Position numbers and translations under genes: made by a program. The notes below the pieces were generated by a model. That model ran no database searches and had not been told where the DNA came from. It saw only the letters and a list, made by a program, of their open reading frames with translations. This document shows positions 1-15,160 of a DNA stretch of 64,000 nt, one piece after another; the stretch's first letter is position 1, and the number at the start of each line of letters is the position of its first letter. Origin of the DNA: Minisyncoccota bacterium (GTDB taxonomy: Bacteria; Patescibacteriota; Minisyncoccia; Phycocordibacterales; Phycocordibacteraceae); assembly GCA_017991635.1 (NCBI GenBank), contig JAGOQE010000002.1:100237-164236 (forward strand). The letters run 5' to 3'.

Positions 1-1080
1 GAGCGCACACATAATCAAAGGTAAGTATTTTGAAAAGAATAATCCACGGATACGCAAGCAAGAGGAAGAAACTTGGACGAAGTGTTGTTGTGGTCTTTGC
101 ACGCACATTACTCGTAATCATGACCTCAAAGTTTTCCTTGTTTCTGTTGTAGCCTGGAGCAAACTCCGCCATCTTGTACCAAAAGTTCATGGTGTAGTAC
201 ATCCGTCCGTAATGGAATGCAAGAAGGTTCTCAAAGATGTAGGAATGCTTTTCTACAAGCGCTTTTGAAATCCCGGAATGCGTGAGCAAGTCCTTGTAGA
301 CGTATTCATACACTTTCTTCGCAAAGCTCTGAGTAAGTGGAAGGACAATGCCAGAGTAACTTTCGGCAATATTTGCGCTGTCATAGTGGTAGAGCTCTCC
401 CAGCTCAATTGTTCTTGTTATTGGGCGGGACTGTAGCACGTAAAGTGTCTCTCCTTTAAAGCACCACTCAATGTCTTGAGGGGAATTAAAAAATTTCTGT
501 AGTGACTGTCCAAGCTCTACGACCTGCTGGAGCTGTGCTTTAGTTACGCTTGGCTCAGAAATGCGCTCAAGGCGAGTTTTGCCATCAGTAAAAAAGACGC
601 AAGGCTTATCCTTTGCAATGTGTTCCTCAAGGAATGTTCCGTCTGTCTGACTAAGGTACTCATCGCACGCTTCCCCGCCAACAACTTGTGAGCACATACC
701 GTGTGTAGCATTTACCACAGAAACAGACGTTCCTGTTTCGCTAAATAGAACGCCTGCCCTGTCGCTTGCGATGCATTCCTGCACAATTACAGATCCGCCG
801 TGCTCTTTGTATGAGTCGCGAACGCGAAGCACTTCTTCCCAGACGCGCGTGAGCGGAACGCCGATTGCAGAGTAAAAGTGTCCCGCATACGATGTTTCTT
901 TTTGGTCTTCTACTAAGGAGGATGAACGAACTGCAAAGTAGGTGTTGCTGGGAAATCTCTCCGCAATGCGTCTATGTGCTACGTGCTCATCTTCAGCGTC
1001 GTTGACAATCAAAAACGAAGGCACGGTATAGCCCGCATCTATAAGTTTTGTAAGTGCTTGGGCCTTGCTACCAGTATCCA
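1..1080 (-). CDS. Partial CDS (N-terminal part in window; ATG at 1080, runs off the left edge). PEP-utilizing enzyme / PPDK_N-like ATP-grasp domain protein (pyruvate-phosphate dikinase / PEP synthase N-terminal-like).
   Basis: Hand translation of the minus strand from ATG at 1078-1080 gives MDTGSKAQALTKLIDAGYTVPSFLIVND...QDIEWCFKGETLYVLQSRPIT. The 'DIEWCF..G.L..LQSRPIT' block is typical of PPDK/PEP-synthase N-terminal nucleotide-binding domains. No complete ORF is listed here because it is edge-truncated. Confidence 0.4.
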
Positions 1081-1083
1081 TAC

Positions 1084-1977
1084 CTAGATGATAGCAAGGT
1101 AGATAATAAGGTTCAGTGCGCCGTAGAGTATGAGGTACGAACCCTGTATTCCCTGCTCCGTGCGAGCTGTTCGTTTCTTATAGTGTGCGTATGTCCATCC
1201 AAGGATGCTCAGCACGCCAAGGATTCCAATGAGTGCGTAGGTAAATGGAACAGGGCCGAGGGTGGAAAGTATGGCACCCCAAAGACCCATAGACACAAGA
1301 CTAAGAAGAACATACACCAAGAGACTTCTTGAGAAGCCGAGGTAGTGCGTATACGTGTCCTTCCCCGTTCCGTCTTCACCTGGAACCTTTACCTTTCTCA
1401 TAAATTCAAAAACAACTGTTCCGACACTGGTGAAGAGGAAATGAAATGTGAGAATGGGAGTGAGTGGAATAGTGCCAGCAAGCAGTGAGTACACCCATAC
1501 TTGCATTAGAATCATCTGTACGAGGTTTACGCTGTTGTAGAGAAAGAAATGTCTACGCAGTCTTTCCCCAAAGAAAAATTCCTTACCGCATAGCCAGGAA
1601 TATCCGAGCATGGAAAGTGCGACGAGAAGTGAAGCGAAGTTTGAAACAAGAGACAGTCCAAGGATTATTCCTACAAGCACACCGTCAACACTGCGTAGTT
1701 CTTCTTTAGTCACGACACCCTTTTGTATAGGGCGATTTTTGTAGTGATTGTTGTCGTGTTCGAAATCCCTATGTTCATCAATAATGCGTATGTGAAGGAG
1801 GTAGGATACCGAAACAATGAGTGCGGTGATTGCAGTCGTGTAGCTGAATGCTTCTGTGGTAACCGCTACCGAGCTCAAAATTGCGGGAATAAGACTCACC
1901 ACAAGAACCGCTACAGGAAAACGTGCCTTCTGGTAACGCCGAAACCGAATTAGAAAAGGTGCCTGCTTCGCGCTCAT
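1084..1977 (-). CDS. UbiA-family integral membrane prenyltransferase
   Basis: 297 aa, about 8 predicted TM helices. DxxxDxxxD Mg-binding motif (IIDEHRDFEHD) after the first TM helices, as in the UbiA / DGGGP-synthase family. Confidence 0.55.
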   Translation of the reverse strand: MSAKQAPFLIRFRRYQKARFPVAVLVVSLIPAILSSVAVTTEAFSYTTAITALIVSVSYLLHIRIIDEHRDFEHDNNHYKNRPIQKGVVTKEELRSVDGVLVGIILGLSLVSNFASLLVALSMLGYSWLCGKEFFFGERLRRHFFLYNSVNLVQMILMQVWVYSLLAGTIPLTPILTFHFLFTSVGTVVFEFMRKVKVPGEDGTGKDTYTHYLGFSRSLLVYVLLSLVSMGLWGAILSTLGPVPFTYALIGILGVLSILGWTYAHYKKRTARTEQGIQGSYLILYGALNLIIYLAII

Positions 1978-3056
1978 GGATGTATGGTACCAGCCGTACA
2001 GGAATCATAGAAAAAAACTCTGTCTTTATGGGCTAATGCCAGTGAAAGACTTCTATCTATTCGTACCTGCGAGGTCAGAGCCTCAGGAATATCACGATGG
2101 AGCAAATTCTCCCAAAAAATAAAGCGAGAGCCAGGTTTCGCTACGCGTACTATTTCCTGCCATGTTTCCTCGTATAGTGTGTCGTCTAATGCTTCAAAAA
2201 TATCCGAAAAATTGAACGCCGAAATACTCCCATCCTTTTGAGTACGTAGATATGATAGAAGTCCGTCAGACACAATCGTAAGATTGCTACTCTGTTCCGG
2301 TACGCTTTTCAGGTAAGGCGGCACATCTCCTTGATGCTCTCCAGTAAGGCTGTAGGTGAAGAAGTAGTTATGCGCTATGGGAACACGACCTAGAAACTCT
2401 AAGAGTCGCGTTGCATATGTCTTTTTGAGTGAGTGCTCGCGCGTTTGAGAAAACATAATTTTTTGTCGCGCCTTTGAGAGCATGAAGCGCGTTGTGGCGA
2501 TAGAGAATACAAACTGCCATAGCGAAGTATTGAAGTGCGTACTATAGAACGCAACTTGCGCATCTGTACCAGACACGGAGAGGAAGTTCCTTATGGTTTT
2601 TTTCTTATGGATATGTGGTAACACACGCCTTGCAAAGAATCTGGTGAAGCGCTCAAAGCGTCCGCAATGGATAATTCCAATACGTATGTCTTCCAAATGC
2701 TTGTCCCACCACACACGCGCCTCTGGTGAGAGTATGTCTGCCAGCTCCCTGTACGTTTCTTCTCGAGCATCTGATGGCAGCTCTCCGAGAAATGCTAAAC
2801 AATCCTCTTGCGAAAGAGTGGTGCGTGCCAACTGTTTGAGCTCAAGGAGATAGTTCTGTGTCTCATTAAGGTCTATTGAAATTACTTCCTTCGGACCTTG
2901 GTCAATAAGTGTGAGCGAGTTGTCTCCTCCTGAGGTAATGGAAAGCACTCGGTCATCCTCGCGTACGTGAAGTGCCTCCAGAACCAGTTCTGGATCTTCC
3001 CAACACTGACTGTAATGAATGCTCTGCTTAGACATGATGATGTGTAAATGCGCCAA
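1974..3056 (-). CDS. BtaA-like (DUF3419) S-adenosylmethionine:diacylglycerol 3-amino-3-carboxypropyltransferase homolog (betaine-lipid synthase family)
   Basis: 360 aa. N-terminal 'YSQCWEDPELVLEAL' block followed by a Rossmann-like 'VLSITSGGDN' segment, both characteristic of BtaA/DUF3419 proteins. The 4-nt overlap with the upstream UbiA gene suggests translational coupling. Confidence 0.5.
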   Translation of the reverse strand: MAHLHIIMSKQSIHYSQCWEDPELVLEALHVREDDRVLSITSGGDNSLTLIDQGPKEVISIDLNETQNYLLELKQLARTTLSQEDCLAFLGELPSDAREETYRELADILSPEARVWWDKHLEDIRIGIIHCGRFERFTRFFARRVLPHIHKKKTIRNFLSVSGTDAQVAFYSTHFNTSLWQFVFSIATTRFMLSKARQKIMFSQTREHSLKKTYATRLLEFLGRVPIAHNYFFTYSLTGEHQGDVPPYLKSVPEQSSNLTIVSDGLLSYLRTQKDGSISAFNFSDIFEALDDTLYEETWQEIVRVAKPGSRFIFWENLLHRDIPEALTSQVRIDRSLSLALAHKDRVFFYDSCTAGTIHP

Positions 3057-3969
3057 GTGTCTTTGCTAGATACTCTTTAGAAATATAGTTTTTAGCAAAG
3101 ACTGATTTCGGAAAGTCATAGGTAGATGACCAATACGGACGGACATGTGATGCAAAGGAGTAAAGCGCACGCTCTTCATCAGTGAGCTCAAGCGCACCAA
3201 ATTCCTCAAATGATATGTCCACGATTTCTATATGGGTGTCTAAGTCAAGAAGCTCAAGTGTTTCTTTGAGAAGAGAATCTGCACTTGGAGGGTTCGGATT
3301 AGTGAGATACGAGTCTTCAAGGGTACTTCTAAGGACGCCTTCTGCAATATACTCGGCTACAATATCAACCGGCACCATGTTTGAAGTTCCGAGCATTCTA
3401 GGAAAGCGCACAGGTCTTTTATGTCGCTTCCCTTCCTTAAGCGCTTCACTAAAGGCTCGCACAATTCTGTAGTAGCCGTTGTATGAGCGAAGCTCGCCAG
3501 TGTCAGTTCTCCCGGTAAGCACTGAGGGACGATATATGCTGAACGGAATGTTTGATTGAGAAAGTAAGTTCTCTGCTCGTGCCTTGTCACGTTCGTACTC
3601 ATTTACGTATGAATCCTTGAGTTCTTCAGGTCTGTACGTGTACGCAGTACCCACGTAGTGAATGGGTACAGAAGCGAATGATGCGTACTCAATAACAGTA
3701 CGCATCATTCGCTCGTTGGCGCGCCCTTCACTTTTAAAGCTGACATCTCCTGCGGCGTGCACGATAGCATCGATATCCATTGTGGGTATCTTGCGGGCAT
3801 CTTCCAAGAGGTCTCCAAATACAGGAGCCGCTAACGCTTTTGGATAACGTTCTAGAAATGTTCCATTCTCTGTTCGTAGAAGTGGAATAACTGTTGCGTC
3901 ACGAGTAATAAGGGAAAGCCCAAGCGAGCAGCCTAGGTTTCCTGTAATCCCTGTGAGAAGCACCTTCAT
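3028..3969 (-). CDS. NAD(P)-dependent epimerase/dehydratase-family oxidoreductase (possibly thioester/fatty-acyl reductase-like)
   Basis: 313 aa. N-terminal Rossmann motif MKVLLTGITGNLG (TGxxGxxG). SDR-extended-like YxxxK region (YVGTAYTYRPEE). Confidence 0.55.
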   Translation of the reverse strand: MKVLLTGITGNLGCSLGLSLITRDATVIPLLRTENGTFLERYPKALAAPVFGDLLEDARKIPTMDIDAIVHAAGDVSFKSEGRANERMMRTVIEYASFASVPIHYVGTAYTYRPEELKDSYVNEYERDKARAENLLSQSNIPFSIYRPSVLTGRTDTGELRSYNGYYRIVRAFSEALKEGKRHKRPVRFPRMLGTSNMVPVDIVAEYIAEGVLRSTLEDSYLTNPNPPSADSLLKETLELLDLDTHIEIVDISFEEFGALELTDEERALYSFASHVRPYWSSTYDFPKSVFAKNYISKEYLAKTLGAFTHHHV

Positions 3970-4007
3970 GATTGTGTGCGTGGTGTGTGCACACGTATGC
4001 GCACTAT

Positions 4008-4673
4008 TTAGTCAGCATTACTCCACGCCTTTTTGTAGAAGACGAGAACGAGGAAGAGTACGAGATATACAAGTCCCATTGCCCAGCCGGTGAAGTGAAG
4101 TGCAGGAGTATTACCTACAGTTGAGCTAAGTGAAGTAATGAGCACCACACCTCCTGCTACTTCAGCAGCAAAACCATAGCGAACAAGCCACTCAGTCATG
4201 CCACCCTTAAACTTAGAAGCAACTGCCTCAATTGCTGGGAATGCTACAAGAACAAAGGCAAAGACATAGAGCGCCTGGAGAAGTGGGTGCACATTAAAGA
4301 AGAAGAATCCTTCCGGGCTAAAGCCAGGTGTTGATGGGTGTGCCGGAGTTCCTCCAAGGTAGAAGATGGTTGCACCAATAACAACTCCAAGGACCATAAC
4401 AGTGCGCTGTATCTTCTTGCTCAATTCTTGCGTACCTGCAGCAAGCATAAAGACGAGAGAGATAATAAAGAATATGGTACCGAATGATACGTACTGCTCT
4501 ACATGTGCTGGTTTTGTAACGACAGCGTATGACCAGATAAGGAAAGCTGCAGCATCAAGAAGAAGCGCAATACCGAAGTTCTTGAAAACCATTCCCCGTT
4601 TGCTGACAAACTTGAGTCCCAAGAGGAGTGAGGCGATAACGCTCTGCACAAAGAATAAGAGTACGAGGTTCAT
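4008..4673 (-). CDS. Polytopic membrane protein, unknown function (within the lipid cluster)
   Basis: 221 aa, 6-7 hydrophobic helices, no recognisable catalytic motif. Confidence 0.4.
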   Translation of the reverse strand: MNLVLLFFVQSVIASLLLGLKFVSKRGMVFKNFGIALLLDAAAFLIWSYAVVTKPAHVEQYVSFGTIFFIISLVFMLAAGTQELSKKIQRTVMVLGVVIGATIFYLGGTPAHPSTPGFSPEGFFFFNVHPLLQALYVFAFVLVAFPAIEAVASKFKGGMTEWLVRYGFAAEVAGGVVLITSLSSTVGNTPALHFTGWAMGLVYLVLFLVLVFYKKAWSNAD

Positions 4674-4739
4674 GAATGGGTGGTTAGTTGAAATTTAAAG
4701 GCCCTATGTAAAGATTATAGAACTATACTTGGGTAGTGT

Positions 4740-5450
4740 ATGTGTTATGCACACCTAAGAAAATCAACCATGTACGCTCATATTAGCCCTCCAAGCCTCA
4801 TCCAACGCCTAGCCTGGGCCCCGCTTCGTCTTCTTGCACGGCGCGCAGAGTCTTTTGAGGTTGTAGGAACGGAGCACGTGTCTTCTGTGCCCGGGCCAGT
4901 TATCTTTGCGAGCAACCATATTTCAGAGTTTGACCCGCTTTTACTCGTTGCCTCCCTTCCCTTTTCCTCACGACATCTTCCACTTCACTACGTAGCGAGG
5001 GAGTCTTCGTTCTATGCGCCTGGTTGGAAGAGGATTGTGTATGGTGGTATCACCTTTAAGCTCATGGGCGCTCACCCAGCATATGTCGGACGTAATAATT
5101 ATCACGAAGCACTTCCCCATCACTTGCGTGTCCTTGCTCAAGGAAGAAGCGTGGGTATCTTTCCGATGGGAGGCATCACTCCCAAGAGCGAATCACCCCG
5201 CCCAAAGGGCGGGGCCGTCTTTCTTTCTCATACTTCAGGGCACCCAATCATTCCCGTGCGCATTGAAGGAGTTGAAAGAGTGCGTCTTGGAGATCTTGTC
5301 TCTGGAACCAGAAATATTCGCGTAGTTTTTGGTACACCTGTGTACGCTCACGAGTTATTTGAGAAAGGTGAACCTGTCTTCATCCCAGGCGAACGAAATG
5401 ACTTTGACTCAGCCGCTGTTTCTTTGATGGAGAGGATTACGCAACTGTAG
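4740..5450 (+). CDS. plsC: 1-acyl-sn-glycerol-3-phosphate acyltransferase (PlsC-family lysophospholipid acyltransferase)
   Basis: 236 aa. HxxxxD acyltransferase motif (FASNHISEFDPLLL) and downstream 'IFPMGG' block (FPEGTR-equivalent). Confidence 0.6.
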   Translation: MCYAHLRKSTMYAHISPPSLIQRLAWAPLRLLARRAESFEVVGTEHVSSVPGPVIFASNHISEFDPLLLVASLPFSSRHLPLHYVARESSFYAPGWKRIVYGGITFKLMGAHPAYVGRNNYHEALPHHLRVLAQGRSVGIFPMGGITPKSESPRPKGGAVFLSHTSGHPIIPVRIEGVERVRLGDLVSGTRNIRVVFGTPVYAHELFEKGEPVFIPGERNDFDSAAVSLMERITQL

Positions 5451-6060
5451 GCGTGTGCTTTTTGCGGTACTGAATTGCTATTGCGTAAGCGATTAGGTAA
5501 GGGATTCCGACGAATGCAGTAAGCCACGCTCCAAGCATTTGAATTAGAGGTATAAAATTAAGGAAAAAGACAAAGTGTCTGATTTCAATCAAAGAAAGAA
5601 TAAAACCGTCAATTTTATGTGTAGACGAAGCAAACATTTTTGTATATGCACGCTCGCGCAGGGTAAATAAGTAACCTATACCAAGTACGGCAATCATCTC
5701 GATGAAGAATGGGTACAGGGCTGGAGACGTTACCAAAATAAAAAGATCAAGCGTGAAGATCAGTATGCAGGAAGCGACCAAGAAGGACTTGTTCGAAGCT
5801 GGCACAAACGTTCCCCATATTTTTGAAACTACCGGGCCATTCCCAACACGGTTCTCTTCAGAGAGCCATACTGTTTGAGGAGGTGCGGGTACTGCACCTG
5901 ACACAGTCATCACTGAGGGATTTGCAATCATCTGCGCAAAGCCGTCTTGAATATCCTCGTCCGTTACCCCGTTCAATCTAAGCGAGTTAGTTATCTCTTC
6001 TCTTGAAACACCCCTTCCTGTTTGGAAACGAATATAGTCTATGTGTTGGGGTGAAATCAT
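5437..6060 (-). CDS. Membrane protein with N-terminal soluble domain, unknown function
   Basis: 207 aa. N-terminal about 90 aa polar, then 4 TM helices. Overlaps the plsC 3' end (convergent). Confidence 0.35.
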   Translation of the reverse strand: MISPQHIDYIRFQTGRGVSREEITNSLRLNGVTDEDIQDGFAQMIANPSVMTVSGAVPAPPQTVWLSEENRVGNGPVVSKIWGTFVPASNKSFLVASCILIFTLDLFILVTSPALYPFFIEMIAVLGIGYLFTLRERAYTKMFASSTHKIDGFILSLIEIRHFVFFLNFIPLIQMLGAWLTAFVGIPYLIAYAIAIQYRKKHTPTVA

Positions 6061-6103
6061 ATGGTTTTACATATTCTTGCACGATTAACACGAGATACAA
6101 CGG

Positions 6104-7261
6104 CTATTTCTTACGTATGTGCATACGGAAAAGGCTCATTGAATTGAGCTCAAAGGCAACTTTTGCGCCGTGCATCCAGAGTTTCCATAGCCGATAGAAC
6201 TCAGAATCAAACATACGCTCTATAGTTTCTTGATTTTTCTCCAATCGCTGAATCCACTCAGTCATGGTTCTTATGTAGTCGTCAGTGTCGTCTCTGAATT
6301 CTGCAATGGTGAATCCTGCTTGGGTAGCTGATCGAATTAGTTCGTCCTTTGTGGGTAGGTACCCGCCTGGAAATACGTACTTGAGTGTCCACGGGTCGAC
6401 TGCTCTGTAGGCGTACCTGCCTGTTGCTTGTATATATGCTTGACCACCTAATTTCAGGGCTTGGTGTACGTTTCTAAAAAAAGAAGAGAGATGAAGTCGC
6501 CCAACGTGTTCAATGGATTCAATAGAAACTACAGCGTCATATGTGCCTTTTGGAAAAGGTTGGGTCATGTCTTGGTACGACACGGAAGCATGCTTCCCTG
6601 CACCCTCCTCGCGTATCATATTCTGTACAAAGGTAAGTTGCGCCTTGCTTAAGGTGTATCCGTCTACGTAGTGGTTTCTTTGGACGCATGACTTCATAAA
6701 TCCTCCCCACCCACTCCCTAGATCAAGTACACGTGCTTCAGGTGGGAGTGCAAGAAGCTCATGAACGTATGAGAGTTTATTTCGTTGCGCAATCTCAAGT
6801 GTGTCTTTCTCGTCTGTGTAGAGTCCTGCAGAATAGGACATAGTTTCTGTATCAAGGAAAAGAGCAAAGAAATCATTTCCAAGGTCGTAGTGCTTAGCTA
6901 TGTGACCACTACGTGTAAACGGAGATGTGAGTCGAGAAAGAAGAGTTGCTGTTAAGAGTTCAAGGGAAGGCTTCACGTACTTAAATTGGTGACGAGTGCG
7001 CATGTATGCCTCTAGGTCCCCTTCGATATCCAAAGAACCGTCCATATAAGACTCACCAAAACCAAGCGCTCCTTCACGCACGAGTCGCCGCGCAGTTTTC
7101 TCGTCGTTAATGACCAGAGTAAATTCAGGAGTACCCTCGTTTCCATAGGTGCGGGTTTTGCCATCCCAAAGCCTTGTAGCAAATGCAGGGCACGAGAATT
7201 GAGAAAATATATCGTCCAGGATGCGCAGGTAATCCATTAGGGAGTACTGTAGCATTCTCAA
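6104..7261 (-). CDS. cfa: Cyclopropane-fatty-acyl-phospholipid synthase (SAM-dependent)
   Basis: 385 aa. SAM motif I 'VLDLGSGWGGFMK' and the overall length and architecture of the CFA synthase / mycolic-acid methyltransferase family. Confidence 0.8.
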   Translation of the reverse strand: MRMLQYSLMDYLRILDDIFSQFSCPAFATRLWDGKTRTYGNEGTPEFTLVINDEKTARRLVREGALGFGESYMDGSLDIEGDLEAYMRTRHQFKYVKPSLELLTATLLSRLTSPFTRSGHIAKHYDLGNDFFALFLDTETMSYSAGLYTDEKDTLEIAQRNKLSYVHELLALPPEARVLDLGSGWGGFMKSCVQRNHYVDGYTLSKAQLTFVQNMIREEGAGKHASVSYQDMTQPFPKGTYDAVVSIESIEHVGRLHLSSFFRNVHQALKLGGQAYIQATGRYAYRAVDPWTLKYVFPGGYLPTKDELIRSATQAGFTIAEFRDDTDDYIRTMTEWIQRLEKNQETIERMFDSEFYRLWKLWMHGAKVAFELNSMSLFRMHIRKK

Positions 7262-7325
7262 TTTAGGCTAGTTGTATGAAAAGACTTCGGGCTCGCATGC
7301 GTGTGACGCATGCGAGCCCGTTTGC

Positions 7326-7781
7326 CTACTCGAGGCTCTCGTACTCTTCGAGAACCTCAATGAAGGGATACTGCTTCGAGCTGAAGGCATAGCCCCGAAG
7401 GATGTCTCGCATCCCACGGTACTCTTCCCTATAGCCGAAGTTGAACGAAAACCGATTCGCCCACCAGTAGAAGCCGAAGCCCTGCACACTGATGAACGTA
7501 CGGTAGTGTTCCGGAACAAATCGAACGAGCTTGCAGTTGAGGACTGCGCGCGCCGACGTCGTGATGCAGACGCGTGCGGGCCTTATATCAACGACGGAGA
7601 CGAGCACCCACGGAGGGTGTGCATGCCATCCAGCGCGCGCTTGAACACCGAGTTCGCCAGAGGCAACATTCCATGTGAGCCCTCGTTCCTGTGGCTCAAG
7701 GTAGTTAACCGAGAGCGCGAGCGGTGTCCCGAGCAGAAGAAGCCCGCCAAGGACAATCGCAATCAGTCGGAGGTGCCTCAT
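7326..7781 (-). CDS. Membrane-anchored protein, paralog 1 of a tandem pair (unknown family), GC-rich
   Basis: 151 aa. N-terminal TM/signal anchor. Shares 'R(A/V)VLNCKLV(R/K)F', 'ARxGW' and 'YPF..VL.E' blocks with the adjacent ORF. GC-rich, with overlapping spurious plus-strand ORFs. Confidence 0.45.
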   Translation of the reverse strand: MRHLRLIAIVLGGLLLLGTPLALSVNYLEPQERGLTWNVASGELGVQARAGWHAHPPWVLVSVVDIRPARVCITTSARAVLNCKLVRFVPEHYRTFISVQGFGFYWWANRFSFNFGYREEYRGMRDILRGYAFSSKQYPFIEVLEEYESLE

Positions 7782-8323
7782 TTCGTTTCAGGCGCCGGAG
7801 TCAGAGTCGGAGCCGGCGCCTGAATGATCACCGGCTCAAGCTCTGTGGGCGCTTCCTCGTTCTTGAGCTCGCGAAGAACGGTCAGGAACGGATAGTTCCG
7901 CCCGCTTCCGTCATACGCGTAGCTTTTCAGGATTTCTTCCAGATTGACCTGGGTGTAGTCCTGACGACCGTGCCAGGACAGAAACAGTGCGAGGCCGGCC
8001 GGATTGAATTTGACCAGCTTGCAGTTCAGCACGCGCGAGTTCGCATTGATGCAGACCTGCATCGGACGCGTGTCGACGGTGTTGATTTTGTCGAGGAACG
8101 GGCGTTTGGGATTCCACCCGGTTCGGGCAAGGACGGTGGTCTCGCCGCTGGTGGCGTTGAACTTGTAGCCAATTTCGTAGTTGTCCACGAACTTCCAGCA
8201 CATGAAGAACCAGATGAGGCCGACGATGGCGGACAGGACGAGAAAGCCAACGACGCCGATAACAATCTTCAAACCACGGGACATTGAGTGCTCCTGGGCT
8301 CTCTTGGTTAGGGTGCTTGGCAC
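7778..8323 (-). CDS. Membrane-anchored protein, paralog 2 of a tandem pair, with Pro/Thr-rich C-terminal tail
   Basis: 181 aa. N-terminal TM. Conserved blocks shared with 7326..7781. 4-nt overlap suggests an operon. Confidence 0.45.
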   Translation of the reverse strand: MPSTLTKRAQEHSMSRGLKIVIGVVGFLVLSAIVGLIWFFMCWKFVDNYEIGYKFNATSGETTVLARTGWNPKRPFLDKINTVDTRPMQVCINANSRVLNCKLVKFNPAGLALFLSWHGRQDYTQVNLEEILKSYAYDGSGRNYPFLTVLRELKNEEAPTELEPVIIQAPAPTLTPAPETK

Positions 8324-8450
8324 CGGAATGAGACGTTCAATTCCATATATATTATATACTAAATATGATGATTAGTCAAATATTACGCAAATCCAAAGGC
8401 AAGTTTCGGAGCACTTCATTTTAGGATTGAGCTCGTAACTACCGTAGTCT

Positions 8451-9749
8451 CTACTGAGACTTACCTGATTTTAGGGAAGTAATTACTTCTTCGGCGACTC
8501 GCTCTCCAGACTCAATTGCGCCCTCCATGAATCCATAGCGTTTGGCCGTATGTTCTCCAGAGAAGTGGACTCTACCACTCGACATGCGTAAAAGAGGCTG
8601 TAGTTTTGTGCGGTCATCGCGCTCGAACCAAGGATAGGCCCCTCCAGTATAGGGATCTGCGCCCCAGTAGTACGATGTAACCTCACTTGCTGTCGGCACA
8701 TGGTCACCAAGTGTTGCTTGAAGAACTTTCTGCATCTCAATCTCCTTTGCGCTATCAGGCAAGCTGCTCATGACCTGAGCACGGTCACCCACCGTGTACG
8801 CTATGAGCGCGGCACCATCAGTTTGACCTGGAGTCGCATGGTATATCTGTTGTGGTAGTAAATCAGTCACAATCTCAAATTCGTCGTCATTCCAAAAAGC
8901 TTTCTCAAAGCTGACAGCTGTTTTTAGAATGCGCGCATAGGTCACTTCGTTGAAGGCATCCATTTGTGCTTGAGGTATACCGGGAGACCAGGTAATGTTG
9001 GTCACTGCCAGTGTGGGAATTGCAGCAACAATGGCTTGACCTGTGTACGATGTTCCGTCTTTGCACATTACTGACACTTCATCAGGTTTCTGACGTACTT
9101 CTGTTACTTCAGCATTAAGTACAAGGTTCTCTTCACCCAGCTCCTCAAGCATTGCCTCTGGAAGTCGCTTATTGCCGCCTTGAATAGTGTGAGAACATGC
9201 CTCCTCTCCATCGCCACCTACGGCGTAATCATAGAGGACATCGTATGCGGGAACGAACCGCATGTCTTCGCCGAAATCAGTGCTGCGTATGAGATCAAGG
9301 ATGTTCATATCTCGTACCGATACGTGATGCTGGCCCAAGAAATGCCACCAGTCGATATTTTGTAAACGTTGCACTTCTTCAGGCGTAAGTTCTGGGAAGC
9401 GACGTACAAGCTCCTGCAATTCTTTTTCCCATCCAGTGTTAGCTGTCCATTCCTCTGGCCGGTAGTGTTTCCCTTCGTACATAAGGTGCATGTTGAGCTG
9501 GTGTGGAATAAGTTGAAGGCCGTATTCCTTACAGATTGCTCGCATTCCAAAATCCTTCATCCCTATCCACTCACCACCAAGTTCCACATGTACATTCCCA
9601 ATTTTCTTTGTGTATACACGACCGCCAATACGGTCACGTGCTTCTAGGACTTTTACAGCAAAGCCTTCACGTTTTAAGAGCACAGCAGTGCGTAAACCTG
9701 AAAGACCAGCTCCAAGAATAAGAATTGGTAGTGCCGGGCCTTCAGTCAT
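8451..9749 (-). CDS. FAD-dependent amine oxidase (flavin monoamine oxidase family)
   Basis: 432 aa. N-terminal dinucleotide-binding 'ILILGAGLSGLRTAVLLKREGFAVKVLEARDRIGGRV'. Length and C-terminal FAD-binding 'SGEHT' block typical of amine oxidases. Confidence 0.65.
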   Translation of the reverse strand: MTEGPALPILILGAGLSGLRTAVLLKREGFAVKVLEARDRIGGRVYTKKIGNVHVELGGEWIGMKDFGMRAICKEYGLQLIPHQLNMHLMYEGKHYRPEEWTANTGWEKELQELVRRFPELTPEEVQRLQNIDWWHFLGQHHVSVRDMNILDLIRSTDFGEDMRFVPAYDVLYDYAVGGDGEEACSHTIQGGNKRLPEAMLEELGEENLVLNAEVTEVRQKPDEVSVMCKDGTSYTGQAIVAAIPTLAVTNITWSPGIPQAQMDAFNEVTYARILKTAVSFEKAFWNDDEFEIVTDLLPQQIYHATPGQTDGAALIAYTVGDRAQVMSSLPDSAKEIEMQKVLQATLGDHVPTASEVTSYYWGADPYTGGAYPWFERDDRTKLQPLLRMSSGRVHFSGEHTAKRYGFMEGAIESGERVAEEVITSLKSGKSQ

Positions 9750-11477: not shown

Positions 11478-13268
11478 TTAGTCAGCAATAAAACCGCCGG
11501 CCTGAATGTTCCAGAGCTTGTGATACAGACCTCCCTCAGTCAGAAGTTCATCGTGTGTGCCGTCAGCAGCAACTCTCCCACCTTCAACGACAAGAATTCT
11601 ATCCATCTTCATGATGGTTGAAAGTCGGTGTGCAATGATGATGACGGTCTTTCCTTCCATTAGTGTCGCCAGCGCGTCTTGGATAAGGTGCTCTGATTCA
11701 GAGTCCAAGCTTGAAGTCGCCTCATCGAGAACGAGAATTGGTGCGTCTTTGAGGATGGCGCGCGCAATAGCTACACGCTGGCGTTCACCGCCTGAGAGCT
11801 TGATACCGCGTTCACCAACAAAAGTCTCGTATCCTTCAGGGAGTTTGCTGATGAACTCGTGGCAGTGTGCCTTCTTTGACGCTTCAATTACTTCCTCGTC
11901 AGTAGCGTCTTGCTTACCGTAGCGAATATTATCCTTAAGAGTTCTATGGAAAAGAATTGGTTCTTGAGGAACAAAGGCAATAGCGCTTCTAAGTGACTCC
12001 TGTGTGATAGCGCGAATGTCGGTGTTATCGATGGTTACAGAGCCACCCGATACGTCATACAAACGAAGAAGGAGTTTCGTTATGGTTGACTTCCCTGCTC
12101 CAGAGGGTCCCACGAGCGCCACTTTCTGACTATCAGGAATAGTGAAGGAAAGGTCTTTGAGTACTGACGCATTCTCACCAAAACCAAACTCAACATTTGA
12201 GAACGTTATCGTTCCCTGCACGCCTACAAGAGTTGAGGCGTGCTCAGTGTCCTGAATGCCGTGAGGCTTCTCCATGATTTCAATCATCTCGTACGCATCA
12301 GCAAAGGCGTCATAGAGCTTGCGCATACTACTTCCCATATTCCAGATACGGTCGATAAGACCAATCATGTAAATCTGAATAAGGACAAAGTCACCGACAC
12401 TCAAAATACCTTCCTTCCAGAGAAAGAGCGCTCCTCCAAGAAGAACGAGTTCAATAAATATAGATAGGATGCCCTGTACGGCATACAGCCACGCATCAGC
12501 GTCCCAAGAAATGTTTGTCGCTTTGCGCCAACGTTCAATTGCTCCAGCAAAAAGGGTGCGTTCACGCTTCTCGGTCGCAAAGAGTGTGATGGTGGAGTGA
12601 TTCGAAACAGCATCAGAAAGGAGGCCGGTCACCTTACTATCTTCCTCAGCACGAATAATACGGAGCGACTGGCGCCAGCGCGTCATCACAAACTGAATCC
12701 AGATAAAGAAAACACACCAGACAAAGAGAACAAAACCAAGGATAGGATTCTTGATTGAGAGAATAGTAATGACTCCAATCGCAAAGAGTGTTGTCGCGTA
12801 GAAGTTGAACGCAAAACTATCAAGAACCTGCTCAAAGGCTCGCGCGTAGCGATTCACCTTTCTGGTGAGTGCTCCTGCAAAGTTAGAGATGAAGAAGTCG
12901 TGGGAGTGCCCAAGCAAGTACCCAAACGCCTTATTGGAAAGATCAGCCATTACCTTTGCCTCAATATGCATGAGGGAAAGCATGCGTATGCGTTGACCCA
13001 CCCAGCCAACAGTCATGGAAAGTCCGAAGAAGCCAAGCACCACAAAGAGAATCTTTAGTGATTCGTTAGTTGGTGAAAGTTTCGCAAGTTGGTCGATAAA
13101 CTCGCCCAAGAAAAGCGGAGCAATGATTCCGGTAATTTCAATAACGAGTCCGCCGACAAGAACGCCAGTGAGAAGCCATGGGTACTTCTTTGCCGCAGTG
13201 AAATACGAAACAAGCACGGGTTTCACCCGTGTCTTTACTTTCTTTTCTTCCATACCCTCGCTCGACAT
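11478..13268 (-). CDS. ABC exporter, fused permease/ATP-binding protein (MsbA-like)
   Basis: 596 aa. 6 TM helices, then Walker A 'GPSGAGKST', signature 'LSGGERQRVAIARA', Walker B 'ILVLDEATS'. Confidence 0.85.
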   Translation of the reverse strand: MSSEGMEEKKVKTRVKPVLVSYFTAAKKYPWLLTGVLVGGLVIEITGIIAPLFLGEFIDQLAKLSPTNESLKILFVVLGFFGLSMTVGWVGQRIRMLSLMHIEAKVMADLSNKAFGYLLGHSHDFFISNFAGALTRKVNRYARAFEQVLDSFAFNFYATTLFAIGVITILSIKNPILGFVLFVWCVFFIWIQFVMTRWRQSLRIIRAEEDSKVTGLLSDAVSNHSTITLFATEKRERTLFAGAIERWRKATNISWDADAWLYAVQGILSIFIELVLLGGALFLWKEGILSVGDFVLIQIYMIGLIDRIWNMGSSMRKLYDAFADAYEMIEIMEKPHGIQDTEHASTLVGVQGTITFSNVEFGFGENASVLKDLSFTIPDSQKVALVGPSGAGKSTITKLLLRLYDVSGGSVTIDNTDIRAITQESLRSAIAFVPQEPILFHRTLKDNIRYGKQDATDEEVIEASKKAHCHEFISKLPEGYETFVGERGIKLSGGERQRVAIARAILKDAPILVLDEATSSLDSESEHLIQDALATLMEGKTVIIIAHRLSTIMKMDRILVVEGGRVAADGTHDELLTEGGLYHKLWNIQAGGFIAD

Positions 13269-14215: not shown

Positions 14216-15160
14216 CTACGCGAGTGTTCTGTATTTGTCTGAAAAGTAGAGATACTTCCGATACATGTAAGAAGACGAGAGTTTTCTTACTGTAGAGTCA
14301 GTGTTCAGTCGGTCACAGAAGAATGTTGCCGTGTCAGCAAGCGCGGACTGCGTTGTCCAAAGGTATATTTCACGCATATCCGTGAATGAGTGTATTGCCG
14401 TCGAGTTGTAGCCAGCAATGAAATTATCAAAAGCTTCTTGATTCGGCGCACTCTCGCCGTCTTTAAAAGACCACTCCATCGCGCCGTGCGCTAAGTCTTT
14501 AATAAGTGGACCCATACAGCTCCAGTCAAAGTCAATTACGCCAGAAACGGTCTTAGGGTCAGCGAAGAACACATTCCCTGGTCTGAAGTCGTTGTGAAGC
14601 AAACCATAAGGAGAGGTGGTTTCTTTGGTGAGCTCAAGAATACTTTTGATTTCTTCAATAAGCTGAGCTCCGCCCTCTAAGCTCGTCTCGATTTCGTTTC
14701 TGAGTGTTAACGCGCGCTCAAGTTCACTGTATACCGTCCGAGCTCGAGCGTGCTCAGGAATAAAGTCTTCCCCTGCTTTCGCAATCATTCCGAGCGTCGC
14801 CCCTGCAGTAAAAGTGTGCTCACTAATGGGAACTTCGCCGTCAAAGTTCGCATGATAGCCTTCAACGAAACTAAACATGACGGCAACTTCTCCCTCTACC
14901 GTTTCAACATAGATGTCGCCAGATTTGGTTAAAATCAACTTTGGAACAGGCACGGCCTTCTCTTCGAGAGTTCTAAGTGCCTGGTGTTCAAAATGTATTT
15001 CGGGTACCGAAAGTTTCTTTCCGATACGAAGTATCTTCTTGTTGGTACTTCCTGCCGTGTACACGCGGTTATCACTCGACTCACGTAAGAGAATGCATGG
15101 AGCGTGCTCTGCAAGCTGATACTCAGAAATCACTTTCTCGATTTCATCCATGTGCGTCAT
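14216..15160 (-). CDS. Phosphotransferase-family protein (APH/choline-kinase-like small-molecule kinase)
   Basis: 314 aa. Catalytic 'HNDFRPGNVFF' (HxDxxxxN) and 'IDFDWS' (DFG-equivalent). Confidence 0.6.
   Translation of the reverse strand: MTHMDEIEKVISEYQLAEHAPCILLRESSDNRVYTAGSTNKKILRIGKKLSVPEIHFEHQALRTLEEKAVPVPKLILTKSGDIYVETVEGEVAVMFSFVEGYHANFDGEVPISEHTFTAGATLGMIAKAGEDFIPEHARARTVYSELERALTLRNEIETSLEGGAQLIEEIKSILELTKETTSPYGLLHNDFRPGNVFFADPKTVSGVIDFDWSCMGPLIKDLAHGAMEWSFKDGESAPNQEAFDNFIAGYNSTAIHSFTDMREIYLWTTQSALADTATFFCDRLNTDSTVRKLSSSYMYRKYLYFSDKYRTLA

What the first reader, a model, noticed from the sequence alone, without database searches (positions are those of the whole stretch)
1..7261. 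Eight-gene membrane-lipid synthesis/remodelling cluster (UbiA prenyltransferase, BtaA-like, reductase, PlsC, CFA synthase + three membrane proteins)
Contiguous, tightly spaced or overlapping genes encode a UbiA-family prenyltransferase, a BtaA/DUF3419-type SAM:diacylglycerol aminocarboxypropyl-transferase homolog, an NAD-dependent reductase/epimerase, a PlsC acyltransferase, a cyclopropane-fatty-acid synthase and three uncharacterised polytopic membrane proteins. A PPDK_N-like ATP-grasp gene sits at the edge. If the genome is a reduced (CPR-like) one, which typically lacks de novo lipid synthesis, a dedicated head-group/acyl-chain remodelling island would be notable. The prenyltransferase + BtaA + PlsC combination is not a textbook pathway.
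Basis: partly seen in the sequence, partly recalled or inferred. Interest (0 to 1): 0.6.

Follow-up and report, generated by a model that had tools for sequence, protein, structure and literature searches.

The report
Conserved homoserine-type lipid operon in CPR
A tightly packed operon in a tiny symbiotic (CPR) bacterium combines a relative of the betaine-lipid head-group enzyme with a membrane prenyltransferase, two lipid kinases and acyl-chain remodelling enzymes. This suggests these bacteria build or rebuild some of their own phosphorus-free membrane lipids rather than taking all of them from neighbours.

Summary
Window 1..7261 carries seven complete genes plus one cut by the window edge, tightly spaced or overlapping. 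The genome is CPR (Paceibacterota).

The picture changes in three ways.
1. The operon has ten genes and runs past the window start. A 94%-identical contig continues with a 755-aa rifampin-phosphotransferase-like dikinase, a GNAT and a SEC59/DGK1/VTE5-type lipid kinase.
2. The conserved core is DUF3419, UbiA, dikinase, GNAT and lipid kinase. This core also occurs in Bacteroidota, Dehalococcoidia and two cultured bacteria, Brevibacillus laterosporus and Roseinatronobacter. PlsC, CFA synthase, the reductase and two orphan membrane proteins are CPR add-ons.
3. The DUF3419 protein is a paralogue of true BtaA (22-26% identity, separate clade, never next to btaB). Classical DGTS synthesis is therefore unlikely.

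My best reading, which is inferred: a lipid alcohol is phosphorylated twice and transferred by UbiA. DUF3419 adds a SAM-derived aminocarboxypropyl head group and the GNAT N-acylates it. PlsC and CFA synthase remodel the acyl chains.

Published lipidomics found betaine-headgroup lysolipids enriched with Parcubacteria. I found no paper describing this cluster. Interest 0.66.

The parts
2..1081 (-). N-terminal 360 aa of a roughly 755-aa Rph/PigC-type PEP-utilising phosphotransferase ('dikinase'). This piece holds the ATP-grasp PPDK_N domain and the start of the middle domain. It is cut by the window start.
   Evidence: PF01326 E 4e-26. NCBIfam best matches are Rph-like 'PEP synthase', PigC and Rph, all below cut-off. 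The full-length homologue L005 has PPDK_N at the N-terminus, a PEP-utilizers His domain at the C-terminus and no PEP/pyruvate TIM barrel. Its best PDB matches are 5HV1/5FBS at E 1e-50. The 94%-identical contig L044 shows the full 755-aa gene.
1084..1977 (-). UbiA-superfamily integral-membrane prenyl/alkyl transferase, 297 aa.
   Evidence: PF01040 E 7e-13, 48.8 bits against a 34.2 cut-off. The motif RxxDExxDxxxD followed by R-P is invariant. The second motif is ExxRK...DTY rather than the canonical DxxxD. A profile of 26 cluster UbiAs best matches M. jannaschii DGGGPS 6M31 at E 4e-8; A. pernix UbiA scores only 0.38.
1974..3035 (-). DUF3419/BtaA-family SAM-dependent transferase, 353 aa, of the cluster-specific paralogue type.
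   Evidence: PF11899 E 5e-63. It is 22-26% identical (E about 1e-20) to btaB-linked BtaA of R. leguminosarum and Chondrinema. Against the Roseinatronobacter cluster-type protein the E-value is 5e-46. It sits in a separate clade in the NJ tree. The AF2 model has pLDDT 91 and shows a split Rossmann-like fold with a helical insertion of about 190 aa. It has only weak class-I SAM-MTase and spermidine-synthase PDB neighbours.
3028..3969 (-). Short SDR of the NAD_binding_4 (fatty-acyl/thioester reductase) type, 313 aa.
   Evidence: PF07993 E 7e-14 and Epimerase E 5e-7. NCBIfam matches are PRK07201 and the thioester-reductase domain, both below cut-off. TGxxGxxG and YxxxK are present. It is absent from 6 of 22 CPR-type loci. 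Longer NAD_binding_4 reductases sit in the Dehalococcoidia and Crocinitomicaceae versions.
4008..4673 (-). TM221, an orphan 7-TM membrane protein, 221 aa. Present in all 22 CPR-type loci.
   Evidence: No Pfam or NCBIfam hit. It is 34-67% identical across 20 loci. Only 46 representatives exist among 1.84 billion proteins, all about 215 aa and none fused. The AF2 model has pLDDT 94 and pTM 0.91 with seven helices. Foldseek against PDB gives only generic GPCR-like 7-TM matches at E about 0.008.
4740..5450 (+). PlsC-type lysolipid O-acyltransferase, 236 aa. Its opposite-strand position is conserved.
   Evidence: PF01553 E 8e-14. NCBIfam matches are the AGPAT domain and the Aas-type acyl-ACP--phospholipid acyltransferase, both below cut-off. 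The HX4D motif (NHISEFD) is kept in all 21 homologues. The gene is present in 20 of 22 CPR-type loci.
5437..6060 (-). TM207, a poorly conserved membrane protein, 207 aa, with a soluble N-terminus and C-terminal TM helices.
   Evidence: No family hit. Homologues range from 111 to 595 aa. It is only 52% identical to its counterpart in a strain that is 94% identical at DNA level, where the neighbouring proteins are 91-97% identical.
6104..7237 (-). Cyclopropane-fatty-acyl-phospholipid-synthase-type methyltransferase, 377 aa.
   Evidence: PF02353 E 1e-62 plus DUF7884. Full-length matches to solved CFA synthases: 5Z9O E 7e-52, 7QOS, and E. coli 6BQC E 1e-36. In E. coli numbering, E239 and Y317 are kept while C139 becomes A/S and H266 becomes Q, in all 15 cluster copies. 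This is the same pattern as in cotton cyclopropane synthases (PMC3132707).
7288..7320 (-). Terminator-like hairpin (15-bp stem, 11 G-C pairs) ending the upstream transcription unit. It marks the 5' boundary of the cluster.
   Evidence: The genes upstream of it (7326..8323) are not syntenic with the cluster in relatives.

Best explanation
This is the first seven and a half genes of a ten-gene operon that makes or remodels a phosphorus-free, amino-acid-type membrane lipid.

**Shown**
- Gene order on the minus strand is CFA synthase, TM207, [PlsC on the opposite strand], TM221, FAR-like SDR, DUF3419, UbiA, Rph-like dikinase.
- Beyond the window start, in a 94%-identical relative, come a GNAT and a SEC59/DGK1/VTE5-type lipid kinase.
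- The core of DUF3419, UbiA, dikinase, GNAT and lipid kinase moves as a unit across phyla.

**Inferred mechanism**
1. The CTP-type lipid kinase and the ATP-dependent His-swivel dikinase convert a membrane lipid alcohol to its mono- and then diphosphate. The alcohol is most simply a prenol. A fatty alcohol made by the FAR-like reductase is an alternative.
2. The DGGGPS-like UbiA enzyme transfers that lipid group to a hydroxyl of a glycerol-type acceptor, forming an ether.
3. The BtaA paralogue transfers the 3-amino-3-carboxypropyl group of SAM to a free lipid hydroxyl. This gives a homoserine-type head group.
4. In place of BtaB trimethylation, the GNAT N-acylates the amine.
5. In CPR, the PlsC-like enzyme re-acylates lyso forms and the CFA synthase cyclopropanates unsaturated chains. 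TM221 and TM207 serve transport or scaffolding.

This would let a bacterium that cannot make fatty acids turn scavenged lipids into its own head-group class.
For: **Domains and synteny**
- Domain identities.
- Operon compactness. Terminator boundary.
- Conserved synteny in 32 genome loci and other contigs.
- Continuation past the window start in a 94%-identical strain.

**Core enzymes**
- The dikinase has Rph architecture, matches Rph structures best, and keeps the phospho-His motif GGxLSHAxIVARE.
- p205/p208 relatives are named phytol kinase, dolichol kinase or SEC59/DGK1/VTE5. The Dehalococcoidia orthologue hits PF01148. The family motifs are shared.
- In the known phytol salvage route, two successive phosphorylations, the first CTP-dependent, feed UbiA-type transferases (PMC9782597).
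- The UbiA profile is closest to DGGGPS, an ether-forming lipid prenyltransferase.
- DUF3419 is a full-length homologue of btaB-linked BtaA with a SAM-binding class-I-like fold.
- The GNAT has an ordinary acyl-CoA-binding core.

**Accessories all point to lipid tails**
- PlsC with HX4D and a CFAS with a membrane-binding N-domain.
- A radical-SAM enzyme whose best or longest match is tetraether synthase Tes.
- A fatty-acid-CoA ligase and an HMG-CoA-reductase-like thioester reductase in the Firmicute and alphaproteobacterial versions.

**Independent lipidomics**
- In CPR-enriched filtrate, all 22 lysolipids carried betaine head groups.
- Parcubacteria and Kaiserbacteria abundances correlated with lyso-DGTS, DGTA and DGCC.
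- No lipid pathway was found in 675 CPR genomes (PMC7242380).
- Locus L007 bears Crystal-Geyser-style sample naming.
Against: - No enzyme here has been assayed, and the substrate of every step is inferred.
- The DUF3419 protein is only 22-26% identical to BtaA-type proteins and forms a separate clade. It may transfer to a different acceptor, or transfer a different group.
- The second Asp-rich motif of UbiA is non-canonical.
- UbiA chemistry on a non-allylic alkyl diphosphate is unprecedented.
- The lipid kinase assignment is weak. Only 2 of 22 orthologues reach PF01148, and there is no PDB match.
- The dikinase could instead phosphorylate a hydroxyl or a carboxylate, as Rph and PigC-type enzymes do.
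- The Crystal Geyser study reported only acylglycerols, no ether lipids, in the CPR fraction. It attributed the betaine lipids to uptake from other organisms.
- The Brevibacillus version, with a P450, an AMP-ligase and HMGR, looks as much like a specialised-metabolite cluster as a membrane-lipid one.
Confidence: 0.4

Rival explanations
1. This is classical betaine-lipid (DGTS) synthesis. The DUF3419 protein is a true BtaA making diacylglyceryl-homoserine, and another methyltransferase in the cluster (the CMAS-family enzyme) trimethylates it in place of BtaB.
For: PF11899 membership at E 5e-63. Full-length homology to btaB-linked BtaA. PF02353 also contains N-methyltransferases; pavine N-methyltransferase is a PDB hit at E 6e-11. 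Betaine lysolipids are associated with Parcubacteria.
Against: No BtaB-type gene lies in any of about 35 loci, whereas genuine btaA is followed by btaB. The protein falls outside the BtaA clade. The CMAS enzyme is a full-length CFA synthase with the lipid-binding N-domain and retains E239 and Y317. It is absent from 8 of 22 CPR-type loci and from all non-CPR versions. This reading leaves UbiA, the dikinase, the lipid kinase and the GNAT unexplained.
Confidence: 0.12
2. This is a specialised-metabolite (meroterpenoid or lipopeptide-like) biosynthetic cluster. Its product is a signalling or antagonistic molecule rather than a bulk membrane lipid. UbiA prenylates a small acceptor, the dikinase activates an oxygen as PigC does, and DUF3419 and the GNAT decorate the product.
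For: The distribution across phyla is patchy and looks like horizontal transfer. Plasmid-borne versions in Brevibacillus and Roseinatronobacter carry a P450, a fatty-acid-CoA ligase and an HMG-CoA reductase. The dikinase is related to PigC/RedH. Another DUF3419 paralogue sits in a KAS III / CoF-synthetase-like context.
Against: In CPR the add-ons are enzymes that act on bilayer lipids: PlsC with HX4D and a CFAS with a membrane-binding domain. Two of the five core proteins are integral membrane enzymes. CPR genomes are small, yet keep the operon in many lineages.
Confidence: 0.2
3. This is polyprenyl-phosphate carrier metabolism for the cell envelope. The SEC59-like kinase recycles polyprenol to polyprenyl phosphate. 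The UbiA enzyme acts like decaprenyl-phosphate phosphoribosyltransferase on a diphosphate-activated polar donor. The SDR, GNAT and DUF3419 modify the carrier-linked head group.
For: The SEC59/dolichol-kinase family relationship. The SDR also hits Epimerase and RmlD-type models. From my own knowledge, the UbiA superfamily includes a polyprenyl-phosphate phosphoribosyltransferase that works with an SDR epimerase.
Against: No glycosyltransferase, flippase of a known type or sugar-nucleotide gene lies in any locus. The SDR scores better as NAD_binding_4/thioester reductase, and strongly so in Dehalococcoidia. The closest solved UbiA relative is DGGGPS. PlsC, CFAS and the fatty-acid-CoA ligase point to acyl lipids.
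Confidence: 0.1
4. This is archaeal-type ether phospholipid synthesis acquired by bacteria. UbiA acts as DGGGPS and the small membrane protein acts as a CDP-archaeol-synthase-like cytidylyltransferase.
For: DGGGPS is the best PDB match of the UbiA profile. The small membrane protein belongs to the CTP_transf_1 superfamily in Dehalococcoidia.
Against: No GGGPS, G1P dehydrogenase or CDP-alcohol phosphatidyltransferase lies in the loci. The small protein carries SEC59/VTE5-type motifs and names, not CdsA/CarS ones. The NCBIfam DGGGPS-type model scores 17 bits against a cut-off of 269.
Confidence: 0.06

Closest known systems
BtaA/BtaB pathway for the betaine lipid DGTS (Rhodobacter, Sinorhizobium, Rhizobium)
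   Same: It is a DUF3419/PF11899 protein of similar length. It aligns end to end with btaB-linked BtaA and shares the N-terminal Y-x-Q-x-WEDP and ITSGG(D/C)N motifs. A phosphorus-free head group built from SAM is the likely outcome.
   Different: Identity is only 22-26% and it forms a separate clade. It is never adjacent to a BtaB methyltransferase. It is always linked to UbiA, an Rph-like dikinase, a GNAT and a SEC59/VTE5-like kinase. N-acylation rather than N-trimethylation is predicted.
Phytol/prenol salvage (VTE5 kinase, VTE6 phosphate kinase) feeding UbiA-type phytyltransferases
   Same: A SEC59/DGK1/VTE5-family membrane kinase sits next to a UbiA-superfamily transferase and a second phosphotransferase. 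The logic matches the known route of two successive phosphorylations followed by prenyl transfer (PMC9782597).
   Different: The second phosphotransferase is an ATP-grasp/His-swivel dikinase, not a DUF92/VTE6 protein. One distant homologue is fused to DUF92. The acceptor is not an aromatic quinone precursor. The hosts are non-photosynthetic.
Rifampin phosphotransferase (Rph) and prodigiosin ligase PigC/RedH
   Same: The three-part architecture is shared: an N-terminal ATP-grasp PPDK_N domain, a large middle substrate domain and a C-terminal phospho-His swivel domain, with no PEP/pyruvate barrel. The best PDB matches are the Rph structures at E 1e-50.
   Different: It scores far below the Rph and PigC family cut-offs. 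It is encoded in a lipid operon. In some loci the ATP-grasp domain is a separate gene or is missing from the locus. The substrate is unknown.
Archaeal digeranylgeranylglyceryl phosphate synthase (DGGGPS, PDB 6M31)
   Same: It is the closest solved relative of the cluster UbiA profile (E 4e-8). It shares the first Asp-rich motif and an E/D-x-x-(R/K)-(K/D) second region.
   Different: It is not a family member by the NCBIfam cut-off. The second motif is ExxRK...DTY. No other archaeal lipid genes are present.
Bacterial and plant cyclopropane fatty acid synthases
   Same: The two-domain enzyme aligns over its full length with solved CFA synthases. E239 and Y317 are retained.
   Different: C139 becomes A/S and H266 becomes Q in every cluster copy. 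This combination is reported for cotton cyclopropane synthases, not bacterial ones (PMC3132707). It scores below the NCBIfam equivalog cut-offs. In some CPR loci a radical-SAM gene sits in the cluster where CFAS is missing.

Membership tests
UbiA prenyltransferase superfamily (PF01040) | Profile match above the curated cut-off over the whole polytopic domain | tested here: met
   48.8 bits against a 34.2 cut-off, residues 29-270.
UbiA prenyltransferase superfamily (PF01040) | Two Asp-rich motifs, (N/D)xxxDxxxD and DxxxD, that bind Mg-diphosphate | tested here: inconclusive
   The first motif, RxxDExxDxxxD, is invariant in 26 sequences. The second region is ExxRK...(G)xDTY rather than DxxxD.
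DGGGPS (archaeal ether-lipid prenyltransferase) | Score above the family model cut-off | tested here: not met
   NCBIfam PRK12884 scores 17 bits against 269. DGGGPS is only the nearest solved relative, at E 4e-8.
BtaA (SAM:diacylglycerol 3-amino-3-carboxypropyl transferase) | Membership of PF11899/DUF3419 | tested here: met
   213.9 bits against a 28.2 cut-off, nearly full length.
BtaA (SAM:diacylglycerol 3-amino-3-carboxypropyl transferase) | Orthology with BtaA genes that sit next to btaB | tested here: not met
   22-26% identity. Separate clade in the NJ tree.
BtaA (SAM:diacylglycerol 3-amino-3-carboxypropyl transferase) | Adjacent BtaB N-methyltransferase | tested here: not met
   None in the window or in about 35 related loci. 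It is present next to the R. leguminosarum and Chondrinema genes.
BtaA (SAM:diacylglycerol 3-amino-3-carboxypropyl transferase) | Transfer of the aminocarboxypropyl group of SAM to a lipid hydroxyl | not testable with these tools
   The model shows a class-I SAM-binding-type fold with a large helical insertion. Nothing shows which group is transferred.
Cyclopropane fatty-acyl-phospholipid synthase | CMAS catalytic domain plus the N-terminal CFAS domain | tested here: met
   PF02353 E 1e-62 and PF25371 E 1e-13. It aligns with 5Z9O over residues 14-370.
Cyclopropane fatty-acyl-phospholipid synthase | Bicarbonate-binding residues C139, E239, H266 and Y317 (E. coli numbering) | tested here: inconclusive
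   E239 and Y317 are kept. C139 becomes A/S and H266 becomes Q. The same substitutions are reported for cotton cyclopropane synthases.
Cyclopropane fatty-acyl-phospholipid synthase | NCBIfam equivalog cut-off | tested here: not met
   207.7 bits against 400 for PRK11705.
PlsC/AGPAT lysolipid acyltransferases | PF01553 match and the catalytic HX4D motif | tested here: met
   52 bits against a cut-off of 23. NHISEFD is present and conserved in 21 homologues. It scores below the TIGR00530 cut-off.
Fatty acyl / thioester reductases (NAD_binding_4) | PF07993 match with the TGxxGxxG and YxxxK motifs | tested here: met
   52.1 bits against 20.1. Motifs confirmed. It scores below the TIGR01746 cut-off. 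Substrate not tested.
Rph/PigC-type PEP-utilising phosphotransferases | N-terminal ATP-grasp, C-terminal phospho-His swivel domain, no PEP/pyruvate TIM barrel | tested here: met
   The window holds only the ATP-grasp part. The full architecture is seen in L005 and in the 94%-identical L044. The His motif is conserved. Best PDB match is Rph.
Rph/PigC-type PEP-utilising phosphotransferases | Family-specific model cut-off (Rph, PigC) | tested here: not met
   73-74 bits against cut-offs of 999-1300, on the 360-aa fragment.
SEC59/DGK1/VTE5 CTP-dependent lipid kinases (gene outside the window) | Homology to named family members and shared motifs | tested here: inconclusive
   The profile finds proteins named phytol kinase, dolichol kinase and SEC59/DGK1/VTE5 with matching motifs. 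Only 2 of 22 orthologues reach PF01148, and there is no PDB match.

The most novel reading that the evidence does not exclude
CPR bacteria, thought to take all membrane lipids from neighbours, use this operon to make their own head-group class. The product would be an N-acyl(acetyl)-homoserine glycerolipid built on scavenged lipid. This would be the genetic source of the 'betaine' lysolipids seen with Parcubacteria. An N-acetyl-homoserine head group is nominally isobaric with trimethyl-homoserine (+42.011 versus +42.047 Da).

The operon would also contain a previously unknown route in which a CTP-type lipid kinase and an Rph-like dikinase make a lipid diphosphate. A DGGGPS-like UbiA enzyme then uses that diphosphate to form an ether bond in bacteria.
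Probability: 0.2. Interest if true: 0.85.

Novelty: new variant of a known kind. Interest (0 to 1): 0.66.

Why it matters
Where CPR/Patescibacteria get their membranes is an open question. Surveys of hundreds of genomes found no complete lipid pathway. Lipidomics found unusual betaine-headgroup lysolipids associated with them (PMC7242380).

A widely conserved operon with a BtaA paralogue, a lysolipid acyltransferase and a CFA synthase gives a concrete genetic candidate for head-group synthesis and acyl remodelling on scavenged lipids.

The five-gene core also sits in cultured Brevibacillus laterosporus and Roseinatronobacter, so the chemistry can be tested directly. The core joins a prenol-kinase-like enzyme, an Rph-like dikinase and a UbiA transferase. 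My searches found no paper describing this combination. It may reveal a new way to activate and attach lipid alcohols.

Tried and rejected
**Searches that found nothing**
- Exact-sequence look-ups of the 360-aa DUF3419 ORF and of the UbiA ORF. Only the 353-aa form is on record.
- Single-sequence PDB searches for UbiA and the SDR.
- The p205 profile against Pfam, NCBIfam and PDB was almost empty.
- Ten literature searches found no paper on this gene combination.

**Searches that were uninformative**
- TM221: no fusions among its 46 relatives.
- TM221: Foldseek against PDB gave only generic 7-TM/GPCR-like matches.
- The GNAT profile against PDB gave only generic acetyltransferases.
- The promoter scan found fewer sigma-70-like sites than shuffles and none usable inside the cluster.

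**Ideas rejected**
- CMAS as a non-cyclopropanating enzyme because of lost bicarbonate ligands. I first mis-assigned Y317. Counting against the E. coli chain shows Y317 and E239 are kept, and the C-to-A/S and H-to-Q changes are those reported for cotton cyclopropane synthases.
- The C-terminal half of the 439-aa kinase fusions as a VTE6/DUF92 domain. BLASTP shows no similarity.
- The small membrane protein as CdsA/CarS. The motifs are SEC59/VTE5-type.
- The amine oxidase and the two small proteins at 7326..9749 as cluster members. They are not syntenic and lie beyond a terminator.

Full report
**What is in the sequence**

ORF listing and profile searches show the following genes, all on the minus strand unless noted.

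| Coordinates | Product | Evidence |
|---|---|---|
| 7237..6104 | CFA-synthase-type methyltransferase | PF02353 E 1e-62, with the CFAS N-domain PF25371 |
| 6060..5437 | TM207, 207-aa membrane protein | no family |
| 4740..5450 (+) | PlsC-type acyltransferase | PF01553 E 8e-14, HX4D present |
| 4673..4008 | TM221, 221-aa membrane protein | no family |
| 3969..3028 | NAD_binding_4 SDR | E 7e-14 |
| 3035..1974 | DUF3419/BtaA-family protein | E 5e-63 |
| 1977..1084 | UbiA-family protein | E 7e-13 |
| 1081..2 | first 360 aa of a PPDK_N protein | E 4e-26, cut by the window |

Spacing is operon-like:
- an 8-nt overlap and a 4-nt overlap;
- gaps of 2, 38 and 43 nt between same-strand genes;
- plsC embedded on the opposite strand.

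A 15-bp-stem terminator-like hairpin at 7320..7288(-) separates the cluster from the genes upstream.

There are only two uncharacterised membrane proteins in the interval. The DUF3419 and CMAS genes start at the ATG codons used by homologues.

**Whose genome**

The identical DUF3419 protein is deposited as Candidatus Pacebacteria/Paceibacterota. Its best relatives are from Parcubacteria, Kaiserbacteria, Taylorbacteria, Staskawiczbacteria, Saccharibacteria and Microgenomates.

**Synteny and true extent**

A 48%-identical homologue on a 402-kb contig has the same order and continues past UbiA. It carries a PEP-utilizers protein, a GNAT and a 205-aa protein.

One scan of species-representative genomes gave 32 loci. 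tblastn with the window's proteins shows the following ten-gene arrangement in about 20 CPR-type loci:

CMAS - TM207 - PlsC(-) - TM221 - SDR - DUF3419 - UbiA - dikinase - GNAT - p205

A Logan contig (L044) is 94% identical in DNA to window 1..5466. It shows what lies beyond the window start in this lineage:
- the rest of a 755-aa dikinase;
- a 344-aa GNAT;
- a 208-aa p205 homologue;
- then clpX.

Presence and absence across loci separates two sets:
- A constant set: DUF3419, UbiA, dikinase, GNAT and p205, plus TM221 in the CPR-type loci.
- A variable set: PlsC in 20 of 22 loci, SDR in 16 of 22, CMAS in 14 of 22, and TM207.

**The core is not CPR-specific**

| Lineage | Arrangement |
|---|---|
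| Tenuifilaceae/Rikenellaceae and Crocinitomicaceae MAGs | DUF3419-UbiA-dikinase-GNAT-p205 |
| Closed Dehalococcoidia chromosomes | UbiA-dikinase(C-part)-GNAT-NAD_binding_4 reductase-unknown-DUF3419-p277-PPDK_N |
| Brevibacillus laterosporus B9 (cultured) | HMG-CoA-reductase-like gene, UbiA, dikinase, DUF3419, 439-aa kinase fusion, GNAT, fatty-acid-CoA ligase, then a P450 |
| Roseinatronobacter sp. S2 plasmid (cultured) | the same order through the fatty-acid-CoA ligase, without the P450 |

A radical-SAM gene is a further accessory. Its best or longest NCBIfam match is tetraether synthase Tes, far below cut-off. It occurs in three CPR loci that lack CMAS and in Bacteroidales loci.

**What the core proteins are**

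*Dikinase.* Full-length homologues have PPDK_N at the N-terminus and the PEP-utilizers phospho-His domain at the C-terminus. There is no PEP/pyruvate barrel.
- Their best solved relatives, at E 1e-50, are the entries 5HV1/5FBS. I recognise these as Listeria rifampin phosphotransferase.
- NCBIfam also relates the window fragment to Rph and PigC/RedH.
- The His motif GGxLSHAxIVARE is conserved.

*UbiA.* The first Asp-rich motif is invariant and the second region is atypical. The family profile matches DGGGPS (6M31) at 4e-8, but A. pernix UbiA only at 0.38.

*p205.* The alignment shows SDxxAxxVGxxxGK, KSxEGS and E...G-DNL-x-LP.
- A profile search finds proteins named phytol kinase, dolichol kinase and SEC59/DGK1/VTE5 family with the same motifs.
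- The Dehalococcoidia orthologue hits PF01148.
- Most members are too divergent for Pfam, NCBIfam or PDB.

*DUF3419.* It aligns end to end with BtaA genes that are followed by btaB in R. leguminosarum and Chondrinema, but at only 22-26% identity. It scores far better against the Roseinatronobacter cluster-type protein.
- In an NJ tree the btaB-linked proteins are one clade.
- The cluster-linked proteins are another clade, subdivided by cluster architecture.
- The AF2 model (pLDDT 91) is a Rossmann-type SAM-binding fold split by a helical insertion of about 190 residues. It has only weak methyltransferase and spermidine-synthase neighbours in the PDB.

*GNAT.* It has an ordinary acyl-CoA-binding core in its C-terminal half.

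**The CPR add-ons**

*CMAS.* The protein aligns over both domains with solved CFA synthases. Counting along the E. coli chain gives this pattern in all 15 cluster copies:
- E239 and Y317 are kept;
- C139 becomes A/S;
- H266 becomes Q.

This is the combination reported for cotton cyclopropane synthases (PMC3132707). Cyclopropanation remains the default reading.

*PlsC.* It keeps HX4D in all homologues. It scores similarly to AGPAT and to Aas-type lysophospholipid acyltransferase models.

*SDR.* It is a short member of the fatty-acyl/thioester reductase family.

*TM221.* It is the best-conserved protein of the CPR-specific part.
- The model is a confident 7-TM bundle.
- It belongs to a tiny orphan family: 46 representatives in 1.84 billion proteins, none fused.
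- It has no specific structural neighbour.

**How it most likely works (inference)**

Three functional blocks can be read.

1. **A lipid-alcohol activation and transfer block.** A CTP-type lipid kinase plus an ATP-dependent His-swivel dikinase would give the mono- and then diphosphate, which the DGGGPS-like UbiA enzyme transfers.
   - This mirrors the known phytol and prenol salvage logic of two successive phosphorylations feeding UbiA-type transferases (PMC9782597).
   - A thioester-to-alcohol reductase recurs in different forms: NAD_binding_4 in CPR, Dehalococcoidia and Crocinitomicaceae, and HMGR-like plus a fatty-acid-CoA ligase elsewhere.
   - This recurrence suggests the alcohol may be made in the pathway.
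2. **A head-group block.** The BtaA paralogue adds a SAM-derived aminocarboxypropyl group. The GNAT acylates its amine instead of BtaB methylating it.
3. **A tail-remodelling block.** It comprises PlsC, then CFAS or a radical-SAM enzyme.

None of the substrates is shown.

**Link to published lipidomics**

Probst et al. (PMC7242380) reported the following.
- In CPR-enriched sub-0.2-µm filtrate, 22 of 72 intact polar lipids were lysolipids, all with betaine head groups.
- Parcubacteria and Kaiserbacteria abundances correlated with lyso-DGTS, DGTA and DGCC.
- 675 CPR genomes encoded no complete lipid pathway.
- The authors proposed uptake from neighbours. BtaA-family genes are not mentioned in the sections I read.

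The operon described here is common in exactly those lineages. One locus (L007) bears Crystal-Geyser-style sample naming. This does not prove synthesis. That study saw only acylglycerols, which speaks against abundant ether lipids. It does make the operon a direct candidate.

**Novelty and verdict**

Ten full-text searches found no description of this gene combination. Every component belongs to a known enzyme family, so I rate it a new variant of a known kind: head-group and acyl remodelling related to betaine-lipid synthesis.

There is a real chance that the activation-and-transfer block is new chemistry. Its presence in cultured bacteria makes it testable.

Confidence by level:
- High that this is a genuine conserved lipid operon.
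- Moderate to low (0.4) for the specific mechanism.

Noticed in passing
window 5437..6060 (TM207) versus L044 2..601: TM207 is only 52% identical in protein between the window and a strain whose DNA is 94% identical overall. The flanking proteins are 91-97% identical. blastn finds no match for window ~5467..5877. This looks like a local hypervariable membrane protein.
   Followed up: partly
window 7326..7781 and 7778..8323 (-): Two adjacent paralogous small membrane-anchored proteins, about 35% identical to each other. One has a faint SPFH/Band_7 match. They are separated from the lipid operon by the strong hairpin at 7320..7288 and are not syntenic with it in relatives.
   Followed up: partly
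window 8451..9749 (-): A flavin amine oxidase (PF01593, E 4e-62) lies next to the cluster in this lineage only. It is absent at this position in the 48%-identical relative L003.
   Followed up: no
window 11478..13268 (-) and 14216..15160 (-): An MsbA-like ABC exporter (ABC_membrane + ABC_tran) and an APH/choline-kinase-like phosphotransferase lie within 8 kb of the lipid operon. Either could relate to lipid export or head-group metabolism. They are absent from the equivalent region of L003, which otherwise shares tyrS, a GNAT and a histidine kinase with the window.
   Followed up: no
L017 11976..13142; L023; L025; L019, L021 8731..9873; L036: A 380-395-aa radical-SAM gene is inserted in the cluster in CPR loci that lack the CFA synthase, and sits upstream of DUF3419 in Bacteroidales. 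The CPR and Bacteroidales copies are 42-45% identical. The best or longest NCBIfam match is tetraether lipid synthase Tes, far below cut-off.
   Followed up: partly
L003, L022, L025 (530-556 aa); L011 (two ORFs); L016/L026/L027: The ATP-grasp (PPDK_N) part of the dikinase is sometimes missing from the locus, split into a separate ORF, or, in Dehalococcoidia, encoded as a separate 278-aa gene after the kinase gene. The enzyme can apparently work as two polypeptides.
   Followed up: partly
L012, L015, L022 (labelled Gammaproteobacteria), L028 (Bdellovibrionales), L031 (Elulimicrobium): These MAG contigs carry the full CPR-type ten-gene arrangement. The three I put in the tree (L012, L028, L031) nest among CPR sequences. 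This suggests mis-binning or mislabelling, or recent transfer.
   Followed up: no
L042 (Rhizobium sp. plasmid pMK-2) 3814..10152: A third DUF3419 context: KAS III, oxidoreductase, MBL-fold hydrolase, CoF-synthetase-like ligase, DUF3419. The family is functionally more diverse than 'BtaA' suggests.
   Followed up: no
L037 4007..5305 and L039 2..517: An HMG-CoA-reductase-like gene directly precedes UbiA in both Brevibacillus and Roseinatronobacter. In Brevibacillus it scores below the NCBIfam cut-off and overlaps UbiA. It may supply mevalonate, or may act as a thioester-to-alcohol reductase on another acyl-CoA.
   Followed up: partly
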